64,000 bases of DNA, from contig CM000429.1 of assembly GCA_000165345.1 (NCBI GenBank), forward strand, positions 64,001 to 128,000. Reading direction: 5' to 3'. The translations under genes were made by a program, and so were the position numbers. Below, in pieces: positions 9,007 to 13,462 of the stretch (the first letter of the stretch is position 1; each line of letters opens with the position of its first letter). Below the pieces are notes generated by a model. That model saw nothing but the letters and a program-made list of their open reading frames with translations. It made no database searches and was not told the DNA's origin.

Positions 9007-11451
9007 TTATGAATATAAATCATCAGCATCGTCATCAATGGGAGCAGAGTATTGGGCATGGGTCGAATCTGGCCAGTCAATTGTAAATCCTTCTCCTCCG
9101 GATTGAGTGACATACACAGGGTCAAACTTCATTCTAAACTGATCATATTTGGCAAGGTCGGTAATGCTTACAGATCTTCTCGCTCCAGCAAATGCTTCCT
9201 CAAAATGTTTTCTTCCGATTTCGTAAATATGACTATCTACTTCATCCTCAATTTTCATAGCACTATCATCCCCAGATGCCTTCTTTAGCTCTTCAGCAGC
9301 AATTGCATCTCTAATTGCAGCCTTTGCTGCTCTTTGGCAAAGCTCTGCAAGGTCAGCGCCTGAGAATCCTTCAGTTTTCTGAGCGATAAAAGATATAGGA
9401 ACGTTCTTTGAAAGAGGAGATTTTCTAAGAATAGCTTGTAGAACAGAGACTCTGGCAGGAAGATCTGGGAGAGGGATGTAAATTAACTGGTCAAGCCTTC
9501 CTGGACGCAATAAAGCCTCATCAAGGATCTCTGGTCTATTTGTAGCTCCAATGAAGAAGAGATTCTTCTTAACACCAACACCATCGATTTCAGTAAGAAG
9601 TTGATTCATAACTCTGTCTCCAGCACCACCAGCATCTCCCATGCTGCTTCCTCTTTGAGTGCCAATACTGTCTAACTCATCGAAGAATAGTACACAAGGA
9701 GCAGCAGCTCTGGCCTTATCAAATACCTCCCTAACGTTGGCCTCACTCTCACCAAACCATAAGGTAAGAAGTTCGGGTCCTTTGACAGAAATAAAGTTTG
9801 CAGAGCATTCAGAGGCAACAGCTTTTGCAAGTAAAGTCTTACCACAACCAGGTGGACCATAAAATAAGACTCCACGAGAAGGACTCATTCCAAAACGCTC
9901 GAACTTCTCAGGATGCTCAATAGGGTAGAGTATCATTTCTTGTAAGTTGCGTTTGACTTCTTCAAGACCACCAATATCATCCCATTTAATGTTTGGAACC
10001 TCTACAACAGTTTCTCTCAAAGAAGATGGGTTGCAAACGCCCAATGCAGAGTTGAAGTGATCCTGGCTGACGGCCATAGAATCCAAGATAACTGCGTCAA
10101 TTGTTTCATCTTCCATATCAATAACATCCATTTTCTCACGAATACAACAGAGAGCCGCCTCAGTACATAGCTGGGCCAAATCTGCTCCAACAAAACCATG
10201 GGTATTAGCTGCAATATCATCAATTTTGACATCCTTAGCTAGCTTCATATTTCTTGTATGGATTCTGATAATTTCAAGTCTACCATTATCATCTGGGACT
10301 CCAATATCAATTTCTCTGTCGAATCTGCCAAATCTTCTCAATGCTGGATCAATAGAATTTGGTCTATTTGTAGCTGCAATAACAACAACTTGGCCCCTCC
10401 CTTTCAATCCATCCATAAGAGTTAATAACTGAGATACAACACGACGTTCGACCTCTCCATTAGTCTTCTCTCTCTTAGGAGCAATGGAATCAATTTCATC
10501 AATGAAAATAATCGCAGGAGAGTTCTTTTCTGCCTCCTCGAAAGCTCTACGTAAATTTCCCTCTGCTTCTCCTGCCATTTTTGACATAACTTCTGGTCCA
10601 TTAATCAGGAAGAAGAATGCTCCAGTTTCATTTGCTACTGCCTTTGCAATAAGAGTCTTACCAGAACCAGGAGGTCCATATAATAGGACTCCTCTCGGAG
10701 GTTTAACTCCTAAAGCTTTGAATAGCCCTGGATGACGTAATGGAAGCTCAATCATTTCTCTGATTTGAGCCATTTGCTTTCTGCAGCCTCCAATATCGTC
10801 ATATCCAATATCATCCATTTTTTCCTCATCTTCTCTCTTGATTGGATCACCCTCACAGTGAATTACAGTATCTGGAGCTACAATGCAGTACTCTTCTGGA
10901 TCTACTCCAACAACCTTGAACTCGATTGGACGGAATCCGCCTCTTACCAAAAAAGCATCTCCCTTTTTGACGGGTCTGTAAGCCTCTAGGAAATACGGTT
11001 TCAAATATGTCTCAAAAAGATTACCAGTAATTCCTTCCAAACAGTCATCAAATGGCAAAACATGAATCCTCTTACCATATGGAACATCTCCACACTCAAG
11101 AACAGAAACTGTATCTCCAAGCTTAACTCTCAAGTTCTTCCTGACAACCTTGTTCATACGAATTTTACCTTCCTCCAAATCAGGGTCAACCAATACTATA
11201 CATATTGTATCTCTACGTTTCTTACCCTTTAATAAAATTGTATCACCTCTAAATAATTTCAACTCCTCCATCTTTGCTGGACTTAAACATACAACAGAAT
11301 TATCATCATTAATAGCATCGTCAACCAGCAATCTATTTGGAGCTCTCTTTTTTTCAATTTGACCTGGTGACGTATTATTAGCAGAGGAATCACCATTAGT
11401 CATTTGAACTTCCTCTGACTTTGGAATTTGATTTTCCCCGTCAACATTCAT
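9007..11451 (-). CDS. CDC48: CDC48/p97/VCP AAA+ ATPase; single exon, 814 aa.
   Basis: N-domain plus two AAA cassettes: Walker A GPPGSGKT and GPPGCGKT, Walker [11 protein letters not shown] / DELDSIG, and a C-terminal DDLYS tail typical of p97. Very high identity to p97 orthologs throughout. Confidence 0.95.
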
Positions 11452-11741
11452 TTCTTCTAGATTCCGATATTAATATCTTCAATATATTTATTATGAATTC
11501 TACTTTACCTCTACCTTTTTACTATTGAACCGTTTTAGTAATCGTATATATATACATATATATAAATAAGTATATATTATATTAATGTATATTCATAAAT
11601 GTACTCCTGAATCCAGAATTAATCAGTTTTTATGTTAATTATTCAGATTATCTTTGGAATACTCGCTCTATAATATTCTTTATTTTCTTTTGTCTCCATT
11701 TATTTCCTCTATTCTATTATAAGTGGGGTAATATACCCACA

Positions 11742-11768
11742 TTTTACCGCCTAATTTTTGGCGGTATG
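11742..11768. promoter_or_regulatory. Palindromic TTTTACCGCC...GGCGGTA element in the shared CDC48/Josephin divergent promoter.
   Basis: ttttaccgcctaatttttggcggtatg: an inverted repeat of TACCGCC around an 8-bp spacer, about 300 bp from the CDC48 ATG and 500 bp from the Josephin ATG. Confidence 0.4.
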
Positions 11769-12268
11769 TGTGCATATAATTATTTTAAGTATCTAAGTGG
11801 TTATAAATATTGAAAGTTAATTATTAGTAATTAAAATCAACAAGATATATTTCTTTGATAATAAAGGTGATTGTTAAATTTTCCAAAGTATAATTGAAAG
11901 AGCTGCAATTAAGTTTTTTTTCATATTGCTTTTTCAGACATTTCATGTAATGCATAATTAATCAGGTAGTACGAAATTTAATATTTTATTTTCATCAAAT
12001 AAATATGTATATTTGAAAATATAACATTTATATTTGTTCATAATTAGCGGAAAAGCTTTTCAATTGTGGAAATAGTTGGCTGACTAATTACTATACTTGA
12101 ATCTGAATTCAAGTCTGCTTAACAAGAGTGGGAAATATAAATTATTCCTCGGGAAAGCAATATCTTTATAGGAATGTAATAAATCTAATACCAAAATAAT
12201 TTTAATTTATTAATTGAATATTCAAATATTTATTCTAACTCGAAATAAGTGTTTTTTTTAGTAAAACG

Positions 12269-13462
12269 ATGAGCACAAAAGAGAATGTCATAGTCTATTG
12301 GGAGAAACAAGGAAACGACAGGATGTGTGCTCTACACTGTTTAAACTCAATTCTCCAAGGACCATATTTTGATGAAGCTTTTCTCTCTAAGATTGCTTAT
12401 GAAATAGATGACATGGAAAGACGCTTATTAGAAAAAAGTAACTCAACATTTAAGACAATTTCCGATAATAATTCTCAAAACGCTTCCTACGATGGCTTCT
12501 TCTCAATCATGGTTCTTCAGGAATGTTTACAAAGACATGGGTACTCTTGTATACCAGCAGCAAATCCGAGAGTTCAAGATTATATTTTGTATCCATCGTC
12601 TTGCTGTGGTTATATCATTAACTCATCAGAACACTGGACTTCAATAAGATGCGTCAAAGGAAAGTGGTTTAATTTAGATAGTCTTAAGGCTGCTCCTATT
12701 CACATTGATTATTTCGAGGTTTCAAAGTACTTGCAAGAAATTATGTTCTCTGGAAAGAGTGTTTTTGTTGTACAAAAAATTCAGAATGAAACTGATTCAC
12801 ATTCAATTCCTTTACCTGATCCCGACCCATTCCTTAGACCAATAAAGAACAATGGTAAACAAAGATTTTATCTCACTGCTTCAGAAATTGAGAACCTTGT
12901 TTTGGAGAAACAAAAAGAAGAAAATAGAGTATCTCAAATGGGTGACGAAACCCCAAATAAGAATTTTATGTATTCTAAGAAACCGGTTGAATACTCATGG
13001 CCAACTTCTGGCGGAAATGTGTTGCAGTCTACATTAAATAATGTTGATCAATCTAATGAAATGACATCCGAAGAAAAAGAACTTGAGAAAGTATTAAGGG
13101 AATCTGCAATAGAGTTTGCTAAGAGTATTCCTCTTCCAGATGAACCCCCTGCAGATCATGTCAATTCTATTCAAATTCGTGTCAGGAGCAAGGTTGGATC
13201 ATCTTTTGTCAGAAGGTTTGACAAGACTAATTCCTGTAAGCATCTATTCTCTTGGATCGAATATGAAATGGCACTATTGGGGAATTCAATTCATGGTAGC
13301 CCATATTCTTTCGTTTCTCAATTTCCCTATCTCAAAGTTTCAAAATTTGATGAAAATTCAATTAAAATTTCGAGATCTGATATTAGTGAGATAATTCTTA
13401 ATTCACCAACTTTCAATGACATTGGTATTAATGAGAACACTCTACTACTACTTAATCTTTAA
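12269..13462 (+). CDS. Josephin-domain deubiquitinase (ataxin-3-like) with a UIM-like motif and a C-terminal UBX-like domain.
   Basis: Josephin catalytic region QGNDRMCALHCLNSILQGPYF...DGFFSIMVL...EHWTSIRCVKGKWFNLDSL...SVFVVQK aligns with ataxin-3 (QEGSLCAQHCLNNLLQGEYF...SGFFSIQVI...EHWFTVRKLGKQWFNLNSL...SIFVVKG). UIM-like EEKELEKVLRESAIEFAK. C-terminal IQIRVRSKVGSSFVRRFDKTNSCKHLFSWIE...FPYLKV fits a UBX fold pattern (R..G...RRF....L..FV...FP). Confidence 0.8.
   Translation: MSTKENVIVYWEKQGNDRMCALHCLNSILQGPYFDEAFLSKIAYEIDDMERRLLEKSNSTFKTISDNNSQNASYDGFFSIMVLQECLQRHGYSCIPAANPRVQDYILYPSSCCGYIINSSEHWTSIRCVKGKWFNLDSLKAAPIHIDYFEVSKYLQEIMFSGKSVFVVQKIQNETDSHSIPLPDPDPFLRPIKNNGKQRFYLTASEIENLVLEKQKEENRVSQMGDETPNKNFMYSKKPVEYSWPTSGGNVLQSTLNNVDQSNEMTSEEKELEKVLRESAIEFAKSIPLPDEPPADHVNSIQIRVRSKVGSSFVRRFDKTNSCKHLFSWIEYEMALLGNSIHGSPYSFVSQFPYLKVSKFDENSIKISRSDISEIILNSPTFNDIGINENTLLLLNL

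What the first reader, a model, noticed from the sequence alone, without database searches (positions are those of the whole stretch)
9007..13462. Head-to-head CDC48/p97 and Josephin-UIM-UBX deubiquitinase sharing one 817-bp promoter
The AAA ATPase CDC48 (minus strand, ATG at 11451) and a Josephin-domain DUB (plus strand, ATG at 12269) are divergently transcribed from a single intergenic region. That region carries a palindromic TACCGCC/GGCGGTA element (11742..11768). Ataxin-3-type Josephin DUBs are established p97/VCP cofactors. Here the Josephin protein also carries a UIM-like motif and a C-terminal segment with a UBX-fold pattern (…SSFVRRFDKT…FPYLKV…), the canonical p97 N-domain adaptor. 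A Josephin+UBX fusion physically paired with its presumptive partner ATPase suggests a co-regulated p97-DUB module. This domain architecture is not the usual ataxin-3 layout.
Basis: partly seen in the sequence, partly recalled or inferred. Interest (0 to 1): 0.7.

Follow-up and report, generated by a model that had tools for sequence, protein, structure and literature searches.

The report
Known Josephin-UBX deubiquitinase beside CDC48
This is the Cryptosporidium parvum CDC48 gene (cgd1_330) next to an already annotated Josephin-UIM-UBX deubiquitinase (cgd1_340) that probably docks on CDC48, but the architecture is old and widespread and the two genes are not co-expressed in the one time course checked, so the finding is mostly ordinary.

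Summary
CDC48 (9007..11451, minus strand) and a 397-aa Josephin protein (12269..13462, plus strand) lie head-to-head across 817 bp. That spacer holds a TACCGCC-N8-GGCGGTA palindrome. Pfam and two AlphaFold models confirm Josephin, a UIM-like helix and a C-terminal UBX.

- **Known protein:** it is 100% identical to C. parvum EAK88518.1 / cgd1_340, annotated with a "C-terminal UBX".
- **Known architecture:** Josephin+UIM+UBX was published for Toxoplasma TgJosephin (2026). I found it in Plasmodium, gregarines, Paramecium and an amoebozoan; 72 of the 98 top family clusters carry it.
- **Pairing:** it is kept only within Cryptosporidium, where the whole six-gene block is collinear. It is absent in Plasmodium, Eimeria, Toxoplasma and Amoebophrya.
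- **Palindrome:** two inverted E2F-like sites beside a G-box-like pair. These are the commonest C. parvum promoter motifs.
- **Expression:** published qRT-PCR profiles do not correlate (r = -0.48).

CDC48 docking through the UBX is well supported by sequence but untested. One small new point: relatives carry an SHP-box-like motif upstream of the UBX, degenerate in C. parvum.

The parts
9007..11451 (-). CDC48/p97 gene (cgd1_330), 814 aa, intronless. It has CDC48_N, CDC48_2 and two AAA+lid modules, and a C-terminal ...DDLYS tail.
   Evidence: ORF; Pfam. The published cgd1_330 primer maps to 10041-10062 (-). cgd1_330 is named as CDC48 in PMC12604037.
10822..11352 (-). CDC48 N domain (residues 34-210), the docking platform for UBX and SHP cofactors.
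   Evidence: Aligns without gaps to the human p97 N domain (E about 1e-87), with Cp residue number = human + 15. D35, V38, F52, R53, G54, D55, I70, L72, Y110, Y143 and R144 are all identical. Y110 and Y143 are named as key UBX contacts in PMC5389986.
11452..12268 (.). 817-bp divergent intergenic region, 23% GC, with no ORF of 60 aa or more and no Rfam or tRNA hit.
   Evidence: The equivalent spacer is 796 bp in C. ubiquitum, 653 bp in C. felis, 1340 bp in C. bovis and 273 bp in C. muris.
11723..11766 (.). Conserved composite promoter element. It is a G-box-like inverted pair (GTGGGG 11723-11728 / ACCCAC 11735-11740) followed by an E2F-like inverted pair (TACCGCC 11745-11751 / GGCGGTA 11760-11766). 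It lies 272-315 bp upstream of the CDC48 ATG and 503 bp or more upstream of the Josephin ATG.
   Evidence: It is the best-conserved block of the spacer in C. parvum, C. ubiquitum and C. felis. Related paired sites occur in C. muris and C. bovis. It resembles motif 4 (TTTGGCGGGAAV) and motif 2 (DTGTGGGG) of PMC3734150.
12269..13462 (+). Josephin-UIM-UBX deubiquitinase gene (cgd1_340), 397 aa plus stop codon.
   Evidence: ORF. It is 100% identical to EAK88518.1 / Q5CT23. The published cgd1_340 primer maps to 12485-12505 (+).
12317..12775 (+). Josephin catalytic domain (residues 17-169). Q14, C20, H122 and D137 are invariant.
   Evidence: Pfam 3.6e-46. Foldseek top hits are ATXN3L and ataxin-3 Josephin (3o65, 1yzb; E down to 3e-13).
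12998..13024 (+). Conserved short motif WPTSGGNVL (residues 244-252) in a disordered linker. It is a degenerate SHP-box-like motif.
   Evidence: W244, G249 and L252 are conserved. The region has pLDDT below 50. The family-wide consensus is [W/F]xxGxGxxLxG, and aromatic-x(1-3)-GxGxx-hydrophobic occurs in 25 of 98 relatives against 3.5 +/- 1.7 in shuffles.
13067..13123 (+). UIM-like helix (residues 267-285, core EEKELEKVLRES). Ser279 is invariant. The canonical Ala is Val275 in the C. parvum, C. hominis and C. meleagridis clade.
   Evidence: Alignment. Helix 267-285 is in the models. The profile matches the FAF1 pre-UBX helix, and weakly the ataxin-3 UIM (E = 0.051). Pfam UIM hits 43 of 98 relatives but not this protein. 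Val275 is seen.
13163..13459 (+). UBX domain (residues 299-397). Arg304 lies in strand 1, and the Phe352-Pro353-Tyr354 loop sits at the FPR touch-turn position. An extra beta-hairpin is inserted at about residues 364-378.
   Evidence: Pfam UBX 28.2 bits against 21. The domain model has pLDDT 90 and pTM 0.81. Top Foldseek hits are the UBX domains of 2cr5 and FAF1 3r3m/3qq8 (TM to target 0.64-0.77). The profile hits FAF1 UBX at E = 3.4e-6, with FP aligned to TFPR.

Best explanation
The window is Cryptosporidium parvum chromosome 1. cgd1_340 is the Cryptosporidium ortholog of an old protist form of ataxin-3. It has a papain-like Josephin deubiquitinase, a disordered linker with a degenerate SHP-like motif, one UIM-like helix and a C-terminal UBX domain.

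Most likely mechanism (inferred, not shown):
- The UBX inserts its Phe-Pro loop into the cleft between the two lobes of the CDC48 N domain.
- The linker motif may add a second contact.
- The UIM holds a ubiquitin chain on a CDC48 client.
- The Josephin domain trims or edits that chain.
This is the role ataxin-3 (through its VBM motif) and OTU1/YOD1 (through a UBX-like domain) play on p97 in other eukaryotes.

The head-to-head position next to cgd1_330 (CDC48) is real and is kept across the genus, but it is best read as ordinary gene order in a compact, collinear genome. The palindrome is a pair of inverted E2F-like sites beside a G-box-like pair. This is the generic C. parvum promoter vocabulary. 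It lies closer to CDC48 and does not produce correlated transcript profiles for the two genes.
For: Identity and annotation.

Domains: Pfam Josephin and UBX above threshold. The full-length model has UBX at pLDDT 80-89, and the domain model has pLDDT 90. After the Josephin hits, the best PDB fold hits are UBX domains, several of them solved bound to p97 N (3qq8, 9v9o, 5x4l). The profile aligns the UIM-like helix plus UBX to the FAF1 C-terminus, with FP on TFPR.

Catalytic Q14, C20, H122 and D137 are invariant. All listed UBX-contact residues of the p97 N domain are identical in CpCDC48.

The architecture is conserved from Cryptosporidium to Plasmodium, Toxoplasma, Paramecium and Echinamoeba, with dinoflagellate relatives matching full-length. 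Ataxin-3, VCIP135 and YOD1 are known p97-bound DUBs (PMC5389986).

Ordinary gene order: the block OSBP-CDC48-Josephin-RRM-Noc2-M14 is largely collinear in C. muris, C. bovis, C. felis and C. ubiquitum. There is no CDC48 within 10 kb in four other genera.

Generic promoter: 17 of 18 E2F-like sites in the window are intergenic. E2F is the top motif in open chromatin, and more than half of the peaks are bidirectional promoters.

Expression: r = -0.48 over 6-72 h, and the CDC48/Josephin ratio falls from 25 to 0.8. The cluster 39 list that holds cgd1_340 does not contain cgd1_330.
Against: No binding or activity data exist for this protein or any apicomplexan ortholog. The TgJosephin paper reports a dependence on Rad23, not CDC48.

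The UBX signature is R...FPR, but here the loop is FPY. It is VPK in Toxoplasma.

The C. parvum SHP-like motif lacks the first of the two invariant glycines. Pfam UIM does not score the C. parvum helix.

The expression set is noisy. Per-replicate r runs from -0.56 to +0.64, there are only six informative time points, and both genes read zero at 2 h. Some shared regulation therefore cannot be excluded.

Having a cofactor as the immediate neighbour of CDC48 is improbable a priori (my rough estimate is below 1%, made after the fact).
Confidence: 0.7

Rival explanations
1. The pair is a co-regulated p97-DUB module, driven in both directions by one shared promoter whose palindrome coordinates expression of the ATPase and its dedicated DUB.
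For: The divergent adjacency is kept in all five Cryptosporidium species examined, including the distant C. muris. The composite palindromic element is the best-conserved block of the spacer. More than half of C. parvum open-chromatin peaks are annotated as bidirectional promoters. Both transcripts read zero at 2 h.
Against: The surrounding genes are equally collinear, so the adjacency carries no extra signal. The pair is not adjacent in Plasmodium, Eimeria, Toxoplasma or Amoebophrya, although the protein architecture is kept there. The time-course profiles are anti-correlated or uncorrelated, and of 19 other genes on the same data page the Josephin gene is the least correlated with CDC48. The cluster 39 list holding cgd1_340 lacks cgd1_330. 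E2F-like sites sit in almost every spacer. The same palindrome arms recur upstream of a V-ATPase c-subunit gene.
Confidence: 0.12
2. The C-terminal ubiquitin-like domain does not recruit CDC48. Instead it tunes the DUB itself (linkage preference or activity) or binds another partner such as the proteasome or Rad23, as with the UBX-like domain of TgOTUD2, which is needed for Lys63 cleavage.
For: In TgOTUD2, removing the UBX-like domain abolishes Lys63 activity (PMC10038098). TgJosephin levels depend on TgRad23, and no CDC48 link was reported. The third residue of the FPR loop is not conserved: Y, H, F, N or S in Cryptosporidium, and VPK in Toxoplasma. The domain carries an extra hairpin not seen in canonical UBX.
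Against: The best sequence and fold matches are p97-binding UBX domains rather than generic UBLs. The strand-1 Arg and the aromatic-Pro loop are kept in most relatives. An SHP-box-like motif, a second p97-specific element, accompanies the UBX across the family.
Confidence: 0.15
3. The palindrome is not a transcription-factor site. It would instead be a structural element, such as a DNA or RNA hairpin, an insulator or a replication-related element.
For: It has perfect 7-bp arms that recur identically at 48719-48739.
Against: The arms match the E2F-like motif family already defined for C. parvum. In C. felis and C. muris the GC cores are kept while the outer arm bases and the spacing change, which fits two protein-binding half-sites better than a stem. 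A 7-bp stem with a 7-8-nt loop is weak.
Confidence: 0.03

Closest known systems
TgJosephin of Toxoplasma gondii (PMC13203982, 2026) and the 'ataxin-3, putative' / 'josephin' proteins of Plasmodium, Cardiosporidium, Hammondia and Paramecium
   Same: They are orthologous over the full length: Josephin domain, UIM(s), C-terminal UBX and the conserved WPxxGGxxL linker motif.
   Different: TgJosephin is described with three UIMs, while C. parvum has one UIM-like helix carrying Val in place of the canonical Ala. Only in Cryptosporidium does the gene sit next to CDC48.
Human ataxin-3 (MJD family DUB, p97/VCP partner)
   Same: It shares the Josephin catalytic domain (31-34% identity in the structural alignments, same fold), a UIM after the domain, and an expected role as a chain-editing DUB on p97.
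   Different: From my own knowledge, ataxin-3 binds p97 through a short Arg/Lys-rich VBM and carries a polyQ tract. By inspection, the C. parvum protein has neither and has a UBX domain instead.
FAF1 / UBXD7-type UBX proteins, and p47 / PUX5-type SHP+UBX adaptors
   Same: The UIM-like helix, the LPxEP linker and the UBX align to the FAF1 C-terminus (E = 3.4e-6). The fold matches FAF1, UBXD7, p47 and PUX5 UBX domains solved on the p97/CDC48A N domain. The order SHP-like motif then UBX is as in p47 and PUX5.
   Different: There are no UBA, UAS or SEP domains, and the effector is a DUB. The loop is FPY rather than FPR. The SHP motif is degenerate in C. parvum. The UBX carries an extra hairpin.
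OTU1 / YOD1 / TgOTUD2 (an OTU DUB with a UBX-like domain)
   Same: The same design logic applies: a cysteine DUB fused to a ubiquitin-fold p97 N-domain binder with an aromatic-Pro loop (YPP in OTU1).
   Different: The catalytic family differs (OTU versus Josephin). The UBX-like domain is N-terminal there and C-terminal here.

Membership tests
Josephin / MJD deubiquitinase (Pfam PF02099) | Profile match above the curated threshold, and the Josephin fold | tested here: met
   157.3 bits against a cut-off of 26. Foldseek hits 3o65, 1yzb, 2aga and 6pgv with E from 3e-13 to 1e-6.
Josephin / MJD deubiquitinase (Pfam PF02099) | Catalytic Cys and His, a third polar residue, and the oxyanion Gln | tested here: met
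   Q14, C20, H122 and D137 are invariant in 24 orthologs. Their assignment to ataxin-3 Q9, C14, H119 and N134 is from my own knowledge.
Josephin / MJD deubiquitinase (Pfam PF02099) | Isopeptidase activity on ubiquitin chains | not testable with these tools
   This needs an enzyme assay.
UBX domain (Pfam PF00789) | Profile match above the curated threshold | tested here: met
   28.2 bits against a cut-off of 21, residues 299-363. The ortholog profile hits FAF1 UBX at E = 3.4e-6.
UBX domain (Pfam PF00789) | Beta-grasp fold closest to solved UBX domains | tested here: met
   The domain model has pLDDT 90. Top hits are 2cr5 UBX (E = 7e-6) and FAF1 UBX (TM to target 0.73-0.77), ahead of ubiquitin, SUMO and ISG15.
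UBX domain (Pfam PF00789) | R...FPR signature, i.e. the strand-1 Arg and the Phe-cisPro touch-turn loop (PMC5389986) | tested here: inconclusive
   Arg304, Phe352 and Pro353 are present and align to FAF1 TFPR, but the third residue is Tyr. It varies among orthologs.
UBX domain (Pfam PF00789) | Binding to the CDC48/p97 N domain | not testable with these tools
The N-domain contact residues are all conserved.
UIM (Pfam PF02809) | Profile match, and the e-e-x-L-x-x-A-x-x-x-S helix | tested here: inconclusive
   There is no Pfam UIM hit at E<=1 for C. parvum, while 43 of 98 relatives hit it. The aligned helix keeps the acidic run, Leu272 and Ser279 but has Val275 for Ala. The match to the ataxin-3 UIM is weak (E = 0.051).
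SHP box (p97 binding segment 1) | Consensus h(x)1-2 F/W (x)0-1 GxGx2L with two invariant glycines (PMC5389986) | tested here: not met
   C. parvum has WPTSGGNVL, where the first Gly is Ser and the aromatic residue is two positions further away. Relatives do meet it: FSGAGKSL, FSGQGQRL, FSGQGHRL and FQGKGVSL, always upstream of the UBX.
Metazoan-type ataxin-3 | Arg/Lys-rich VBM and a polyQ tract after the UIMs (from my own knowledge of ataxin-3) | tested here: not met
   No RKRR-like run and no polyQ are present in the 397-aa sequence. The C-terminus is a UBX.
Canonical cytosolic CDC48/p97 | CDC48_N plus CDC48_2, then two AAA modules | tested here: met
   Pfam. The N domain matches human p97 and Arabidopsis CDC48A at E about 1e-87.
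Co-regulated divergent gene pair (shared bidirectional promoter) | Adjacency conserved beyond background synteny | tested here: not met
   It is kept only within Cryptosporidium, where the flanking genes are equally collinear. It is absent in four other genera.
Co-regulated divergent gene pair (shared bidirectional promoter) | Correlated expression | tested here: not met
   Mauzy 2012 qRT-PCR gives r = -0.48 over 6-72 h. The cluster 39 list holding cgd1_340 does not contain cgd1_330. The data are noisy.
C. parvum E2F-like promoter motif (Oberstaller 2013, motifs 3 and 4) | Match to TTTGGCGGGAAV / the GGCGG core in upstream DNA, conserved between species | tested here: met
   TTTTTGGCGGTA and its inverted copy are present. 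They are conserved in C. ubiquitum and C. felis, with related pairs in C. muris and C. bovis. Binding by E2F/DP is not testable here.

The most novel reading that the evidence does not exclude
The ancestral eukaryotic ataxin-3 was a dedicated CDC48 cofactor that docks in two places, through an SHP box and a UBX domain, in the manner of p47. The animal form known from textbooks, and reportedly the plant form, later swapped this for the short VBM motif. The Josephin-SHP-UIM-UBX family seen here in alveolates and Amoebozoa would then be a third class of UBX-type DUB adaptor. The SHP element has not been described in any paper I could find. In Cryptosporidium, Plasmodium and Toxoplasma it has degenerated to xGGxxL.
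Probability: 0.45. Interest if true: 0.4.

Novelty: already known. Interest (0 to 1): 0.2.

Why it matters
If the UBX-mediated docking is real, cgd1_340 is the chain-editing DUB of the single CDC48 machine in a parasite that has lost the apicoplast and much of its proteostasis redundancy. CDC48 is already discussed as a drug target, and cgd1_330 was recently highlighted in a secretome study. The Toxoplasma ortholog is a virulence factor.

None of this depends on the gene adjacency, and both the gene and its domain composition are already in the public record. The useful outcome is negative. The "co-regulated module" idea fails its own tests, and the palindrome is the standard E2F-type promoter signal. 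The SHP-like motif is a small, testable addition to p97-cofactor biology.

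Tried and rejected
- **Complex prediction:** No complex model could be made.
- **Unavailable paper:** Scheel, Tomiuk and Hofmann 2003 (PMID 12944423) is not held. From memory it already noted a UBX domain in the Plasmodium ataxin-3 homolog. That recollection is unverified.
- **Literature searches:** 'ataxin-3' + 'UBX domain' + 'Plasmodium' returned nothing. 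'SHP box' + 'Josephin' returned nothing. Neither the 'ataxin-3' + 'UBX' + 'falciparum' search nor the Josephin/Cdc48/apicomplexa search turned up a paper I saw to test binding.
- **Expression clusters:** the Oberstaller cluster table was truncated in storage, so the cluster of cgd1_330 could not be read. PMC12604037 has no held supplements.
- **Promoter comparison:** a MAFFT alignment of the CDC48 and V-ATPase-c upstream regions was uninformative. The shared elements were read by eye.
- **Non-coding RNA:** Rfam and tRNA scans found nothing in the window.
- **Palindrome in other loci:** the exact pattern TACCGCC-N4-12-GGCGGTA is absent from the other Cryptosporidium loci. Only the GC cores are conserved.
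- **Hidden gene in the spacer:** considered and rejected. It has no ORF of 60 aa or more.

Full report
**What is there**

The window is about 30% GC with long intronless ORFs. The minus-strand ORF 9007..11451 encodes an 814-aa protein with CDC48_N, CDC48_2 and two AAA+lid modules. The plus-strand ORF 12269..13462 encodes 397 aa with a strong Josephin match (3.6e-46, residues 17-169). It also has a UBX match above Pfam's curated threshold (28.2 bits against 21, residues 299-363). The spacer is 817 bp and has no ORF of 60 aa or more. It holds TACCGCC (11745-11751) and GGCGGTA (11760-11766).

**Identity**

The Josephin protein is 100% identical to C. parvum EAK88518.1 / UniProt Q5CT23. [quoted passage not shown] The same name sits beside locus tag cgd1_340 in a 2013 supplement. 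cgd1_330 is named as the C. parvum CDC48 in PMC12604037. The published qRT-PCR primers for cgd1_330 and cgd1_340 map uniquely to 10041-10062 (-) and 12485-12505 (+).

**Anatomy of the protein**

An AlphaFold2 model built on 24 orthologs has pLDDT 75 overall. The Josephin core is at about 90, the UBX region at 80-89, and the linker (residues 224-265) is disordered. In the PDB, the Josephin part matches ATXN3L, ataxin-3 and JOSD2. The next-best hits are UBX domains: 2cr5, FAF1 and p47.

A model of residues 262-397 alone reaches pLDDT 90 and pTM 0.81. It shows one long helix followed by a beta-grasp with an extra hairpin. It again hits UBX domains first. Several of those were solved on the p97/CDC48A N domain (3qq8, 9v9o, 5x4l), and they rank ahead of ubiquitin, SUMO and ISG15.

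A profile of the C-terminal module matches the FAF1 C-terminus at E = 3.4e-6. The alignment pairs the helix with FAF1's "EAIRLSLEQ", LPxEP with LPPEP, IQIRV with LRIRT, and QFPY with TFPR.

The published UBX signature is R...FPR, with the Phe-cisPro loop entering the cleft between the two lobes of the N domain (PMC5389986). Here Arg304, Phe352 and Pro353 are present, but the third residue is Tyr. It varies among orthologs.

Catalytic Q14, C20, H122 and D137 are invariant.

The UIM-like helix (residues 267-285) keeps Leu272 and the invariant Ser279. It has Val275 where 90% or more of the aligned orthologs have Ala. This change is shared by C. hominis and C. meleagridis but not by C. ubiquitum or chipmunk genotype I. 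Pfam UIM does not score the C. parvum helix, although it scores 43 of 98 relatives.

**The partner**

The CpCDC48 N domain aligns without gaps to human p97 N (E about 1e-87), with Cp numbering = human + 15. D35, V38, F52, R53, G54, D55, I70, L72, Y110, Y143 and R144 are all identical. Y110 and Y143 are cited as key UBX/UBXL contacts. The rest of that residue list is from my own knowledge of the p47 and FAF1 complexes. Docking of the UBX on CDC48 is thus well supported by sequence and fold, but it was not tested. I found no paper that tests it in any apicomplexan.

**How widespread the architecture is**

Word-indexed homology found the same layout in every Cryptosporidium species, in a gregarine (Lankesteria) and in many Plasmodium "ataxin-3, putative" proteins. 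An exhaustive profile search found 3183 family members. Of the 98 top-ranked 50%-identity cluster representatives that I scanned, 72 carry Josephin+UBX and 43 carry a Pfam UIM.

Named members include Toxoplasma and Hammondia "josephin protein", Digyalum, a dinoflagellate, Amoebophrya, Cardiosporidium, Selenidium, Paramecium "Ataxin-3 homolog" and the amoebozoan Echinamoeba. For Paramecium and Echinamoeba I confirmed UBX individually; Toxoplasma's precomputed Pfam record also lists it. The Amoebophrya and Selenidium representatives scored no Pfam UBX at E<=0.01, although the Amoebophrya protein matches the whole C-terminal profile.

A 2026 paper describes TgJosephin as having a Josephin domain, three UIMs and a UBX domain, and shows that it is a virulence factor (PMC13203982). 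The layout is therefore atypical only when judged against animal ataxin-3.

**A small new point**

In the disordered linker, W244, G249 and L252 are conserved. Across the 98 relatives the aligned consensus is [W/F]-x-x-G-x-G-x-x-L-x-G. Examples are FSGAGKSL, FSGQGQRL, FSGQGHRL, FQGKGVSL, WSKLGAGQTL and WPEGEGHRL, always between the Josephin domain and the UIM/UBX. The pattern aromatic-x(1-3)-GxGxx-hydrophobic occurs in 25 of 98 sequences, against 3.5 +/- 1.7 (maximum 9) in shuffles.

This matches the published SHP-box consensus h(x)1-2F/W(x)0-1GxGx2L. That motif binds the second lobe of the p97 N domain and gives bipartite binding in p47 and UFD1-NPL4. C. parvum itself has WPTSGGNVL, which lacks the first invariant Gly, so it fails the strict definition. 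No paper in the searchable library mentions both "SHP box" and "Josephin".

**The gene pair**

The divergent arrangement is kept in C. muris (273-bp spacer), C. bovis (1340 bp), C. felis (653 bp) and C. ubiquitum (796 bp). The surrounding block is also kept: oxysterol-binding protein, CDC48, Josephin, RRM protein, Noc2 and peptidase M14. The C. felis annotation calls no RRM gene in that interval. The adjacency therefore carries no signal beyond genus-wide collinearity.

No CDC48 homolog lies within 10 kb of the ortholog in P. knowlesi, E. tenella, T. gondii or Amoebophrya. This holds both in the called gene lists and in a tblastn search with CpCDC48. Within this window, about 6 of 20 neighbouring ORF pairs are divergent, which is close to the random expectation.

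My rough estimate is that a CDC48 cofactor would land next to CDC48 by chance less than 1% of the time. That figure is post hoc and cannot be weighed further here.

**The palindrome**

The pattern CCGCC-N5-10-GGCGG occurs twice in the window against 0.01 expected. The second copy, TACCGCC-ACAATTT-GGCGGTA at 48719-48739, has identical arms. It lies about 170 bp upstream of a V-ATPase c-subunit gene, and a G-run and a TTTGTCTC string lie nearby at both sites.

In the CDC48/Josephin spacer, the best-conserved block across C. parvum, C. ubiquitum and C. felis is AGTGGGG...CCCACAT..CCGCC...GGCGG..TGTGTG. C. muris and C. bovis have related paired GC sites. These correspond to the E2F-like motifs (TTTGGCGGGAAV, DTTGSCGCCH) and the G-box-like motif (DTGTGGGG) of Oberstaller et al. 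2013. That paper reports E2F-like motifs over-represented upstream of genes in 163 of 200 expression clusters, covering 2,379 genes.

ATAC-seq work reports E2F as the most prominent motif in open chromatin. It also reports that more than half of regulatory peaks are bidirectional promoters. In this window, 17 of 18 TT[GC]GCG[GC] sites are intergenic, although only 39% of the sequence is. The element is therefore real, conserved and probably functional, but generic. It is 272-315 bp from the CDC48 ATG and 503 bp or more from the Josephin ATG.

**Expression**

Mauzy et al. 2012 measured both genes by qRT-PCR at 2, 6, 12, 24, 36, 48 and 72 h in four replicates. Both read essentially zero at 2 h. 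CDC48 is highest at 6 h in three of the four replicates. The Josephin gene is at or near its lowest at 6 h in all four replicates, and it rises at 12 h and again at 36-72 h. The CDC48/Josephin ratio falls from 25 to 0.8.

On replicate-centred log profiles for 6-72 h, Pearson r = -0.48 (Spearman -0.14). Per-replicate r ranges from -0.56 to +0.64. Of 19 other genes on the same data page, the Josephin gene is the least correlated with CDC48. cgd1_340 sits in fuzzy cluster 39 with membership 0.998, and cgd1_330 is not in that list.

**Verdict**

The protein-level reading, a Josephin DUB with a UBX that most likely docks on CDC48, is well supported but already known. The module-level reading, a novel architecture co-regulated with its partner from a special shared promoter, is not supported.

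Noticed in passing
window 48719-48739: A second palindrome with identical arms, TACCGCC-ACAATTT-GGCGGTA, lies about 170 bp upstream of the minus-strand V-ATPase c-subunit ORF 48051..48548. A G-run (TTGGGGGTA) and a TTTGTCTC string sit just upstream, as at the CDC48 site. This may be a recurrent composite promoter module for highly expressed housekeeping genes.
   Followed up: partly
window 12998-13024 (Josephin protein residues 244-252) and relatives P0058, P0081, P0083, P0066, P0070: A conserved SHP-box-like motif ([W/F]xxGxGxxL) lies between the Josephin domain and the UIM/UBX across the family. It is degenerate in Cryptosporidium, Plasmodium and Toxoplasma, and it was not found described in the searchable literature.
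   Followed up: partly
window 2630-4096 (+): A 488-aa protein with an N-terminal ubiquitin-like domain and a USP catalytic domain, which is the layout of USP14/Ubp6. It is a second deubiquitinase gene only about 5 kb from CDC48, and it is itself divergently paired with the ORF 1365..2468 (-).
   Followed up: no
window 48051-48548 (-) and 49879-50376 (-): Two tandem 165-aa ORFs both match ATP-synt_C (the V-ATPase proteolipid c subunit). A third 165-aa ORF at 41168..41665 (-) has no Pfam hit.
   Followed up: no
window 13091-13093 (codon for Val275 of the Josephin protein): The canonical UIM alanine is valine in C. parvum, C. hominis and C. meleagridis. It is alanine in chipmunk genotype I, C. 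ubiquitum and nearly all other orthologs. This is a recent substitution at the ubiquitin-contacting position.
   Followed up: partly
window about 13358-13402 (Josephin protein residues about 364-378): In the model, the UBX carries an extra beta-hairpin between strand 4 and the last helix and strand. It is absent from the canonical FAF1 and p47 UBX domains, and its function is unknown.
   Followed up: no
cgd1_330 and cgd1_340 in Mauzy 2012 supplementary file 2: Both transcripts read essentially zero in all four replicates at 2 h post-infection, although they are abundant from 6 h (CDC48) or 12 h (Josephin). cgd1_40 shows the same pattern, so this may be a class of genes silent in the earliest intracellular stage, or an assay artefact.
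   Followed up: no
window 52734-61757 (+): A very long ORF of 3007 aa, preceded at 52329-52349 by a cluster of three E2F-like sites (TTGGCGCCAA and TTTTGGCGCC). It was not characterised.
   Followed up: no
window 28000-32200: A stretch of about 4.3 kb has no ORF of 150 aa or more. It contains a cluster of E2F-like sites at 29064-29087. It may hold short or spliced genes, and it was not examined.
   Followed up: no
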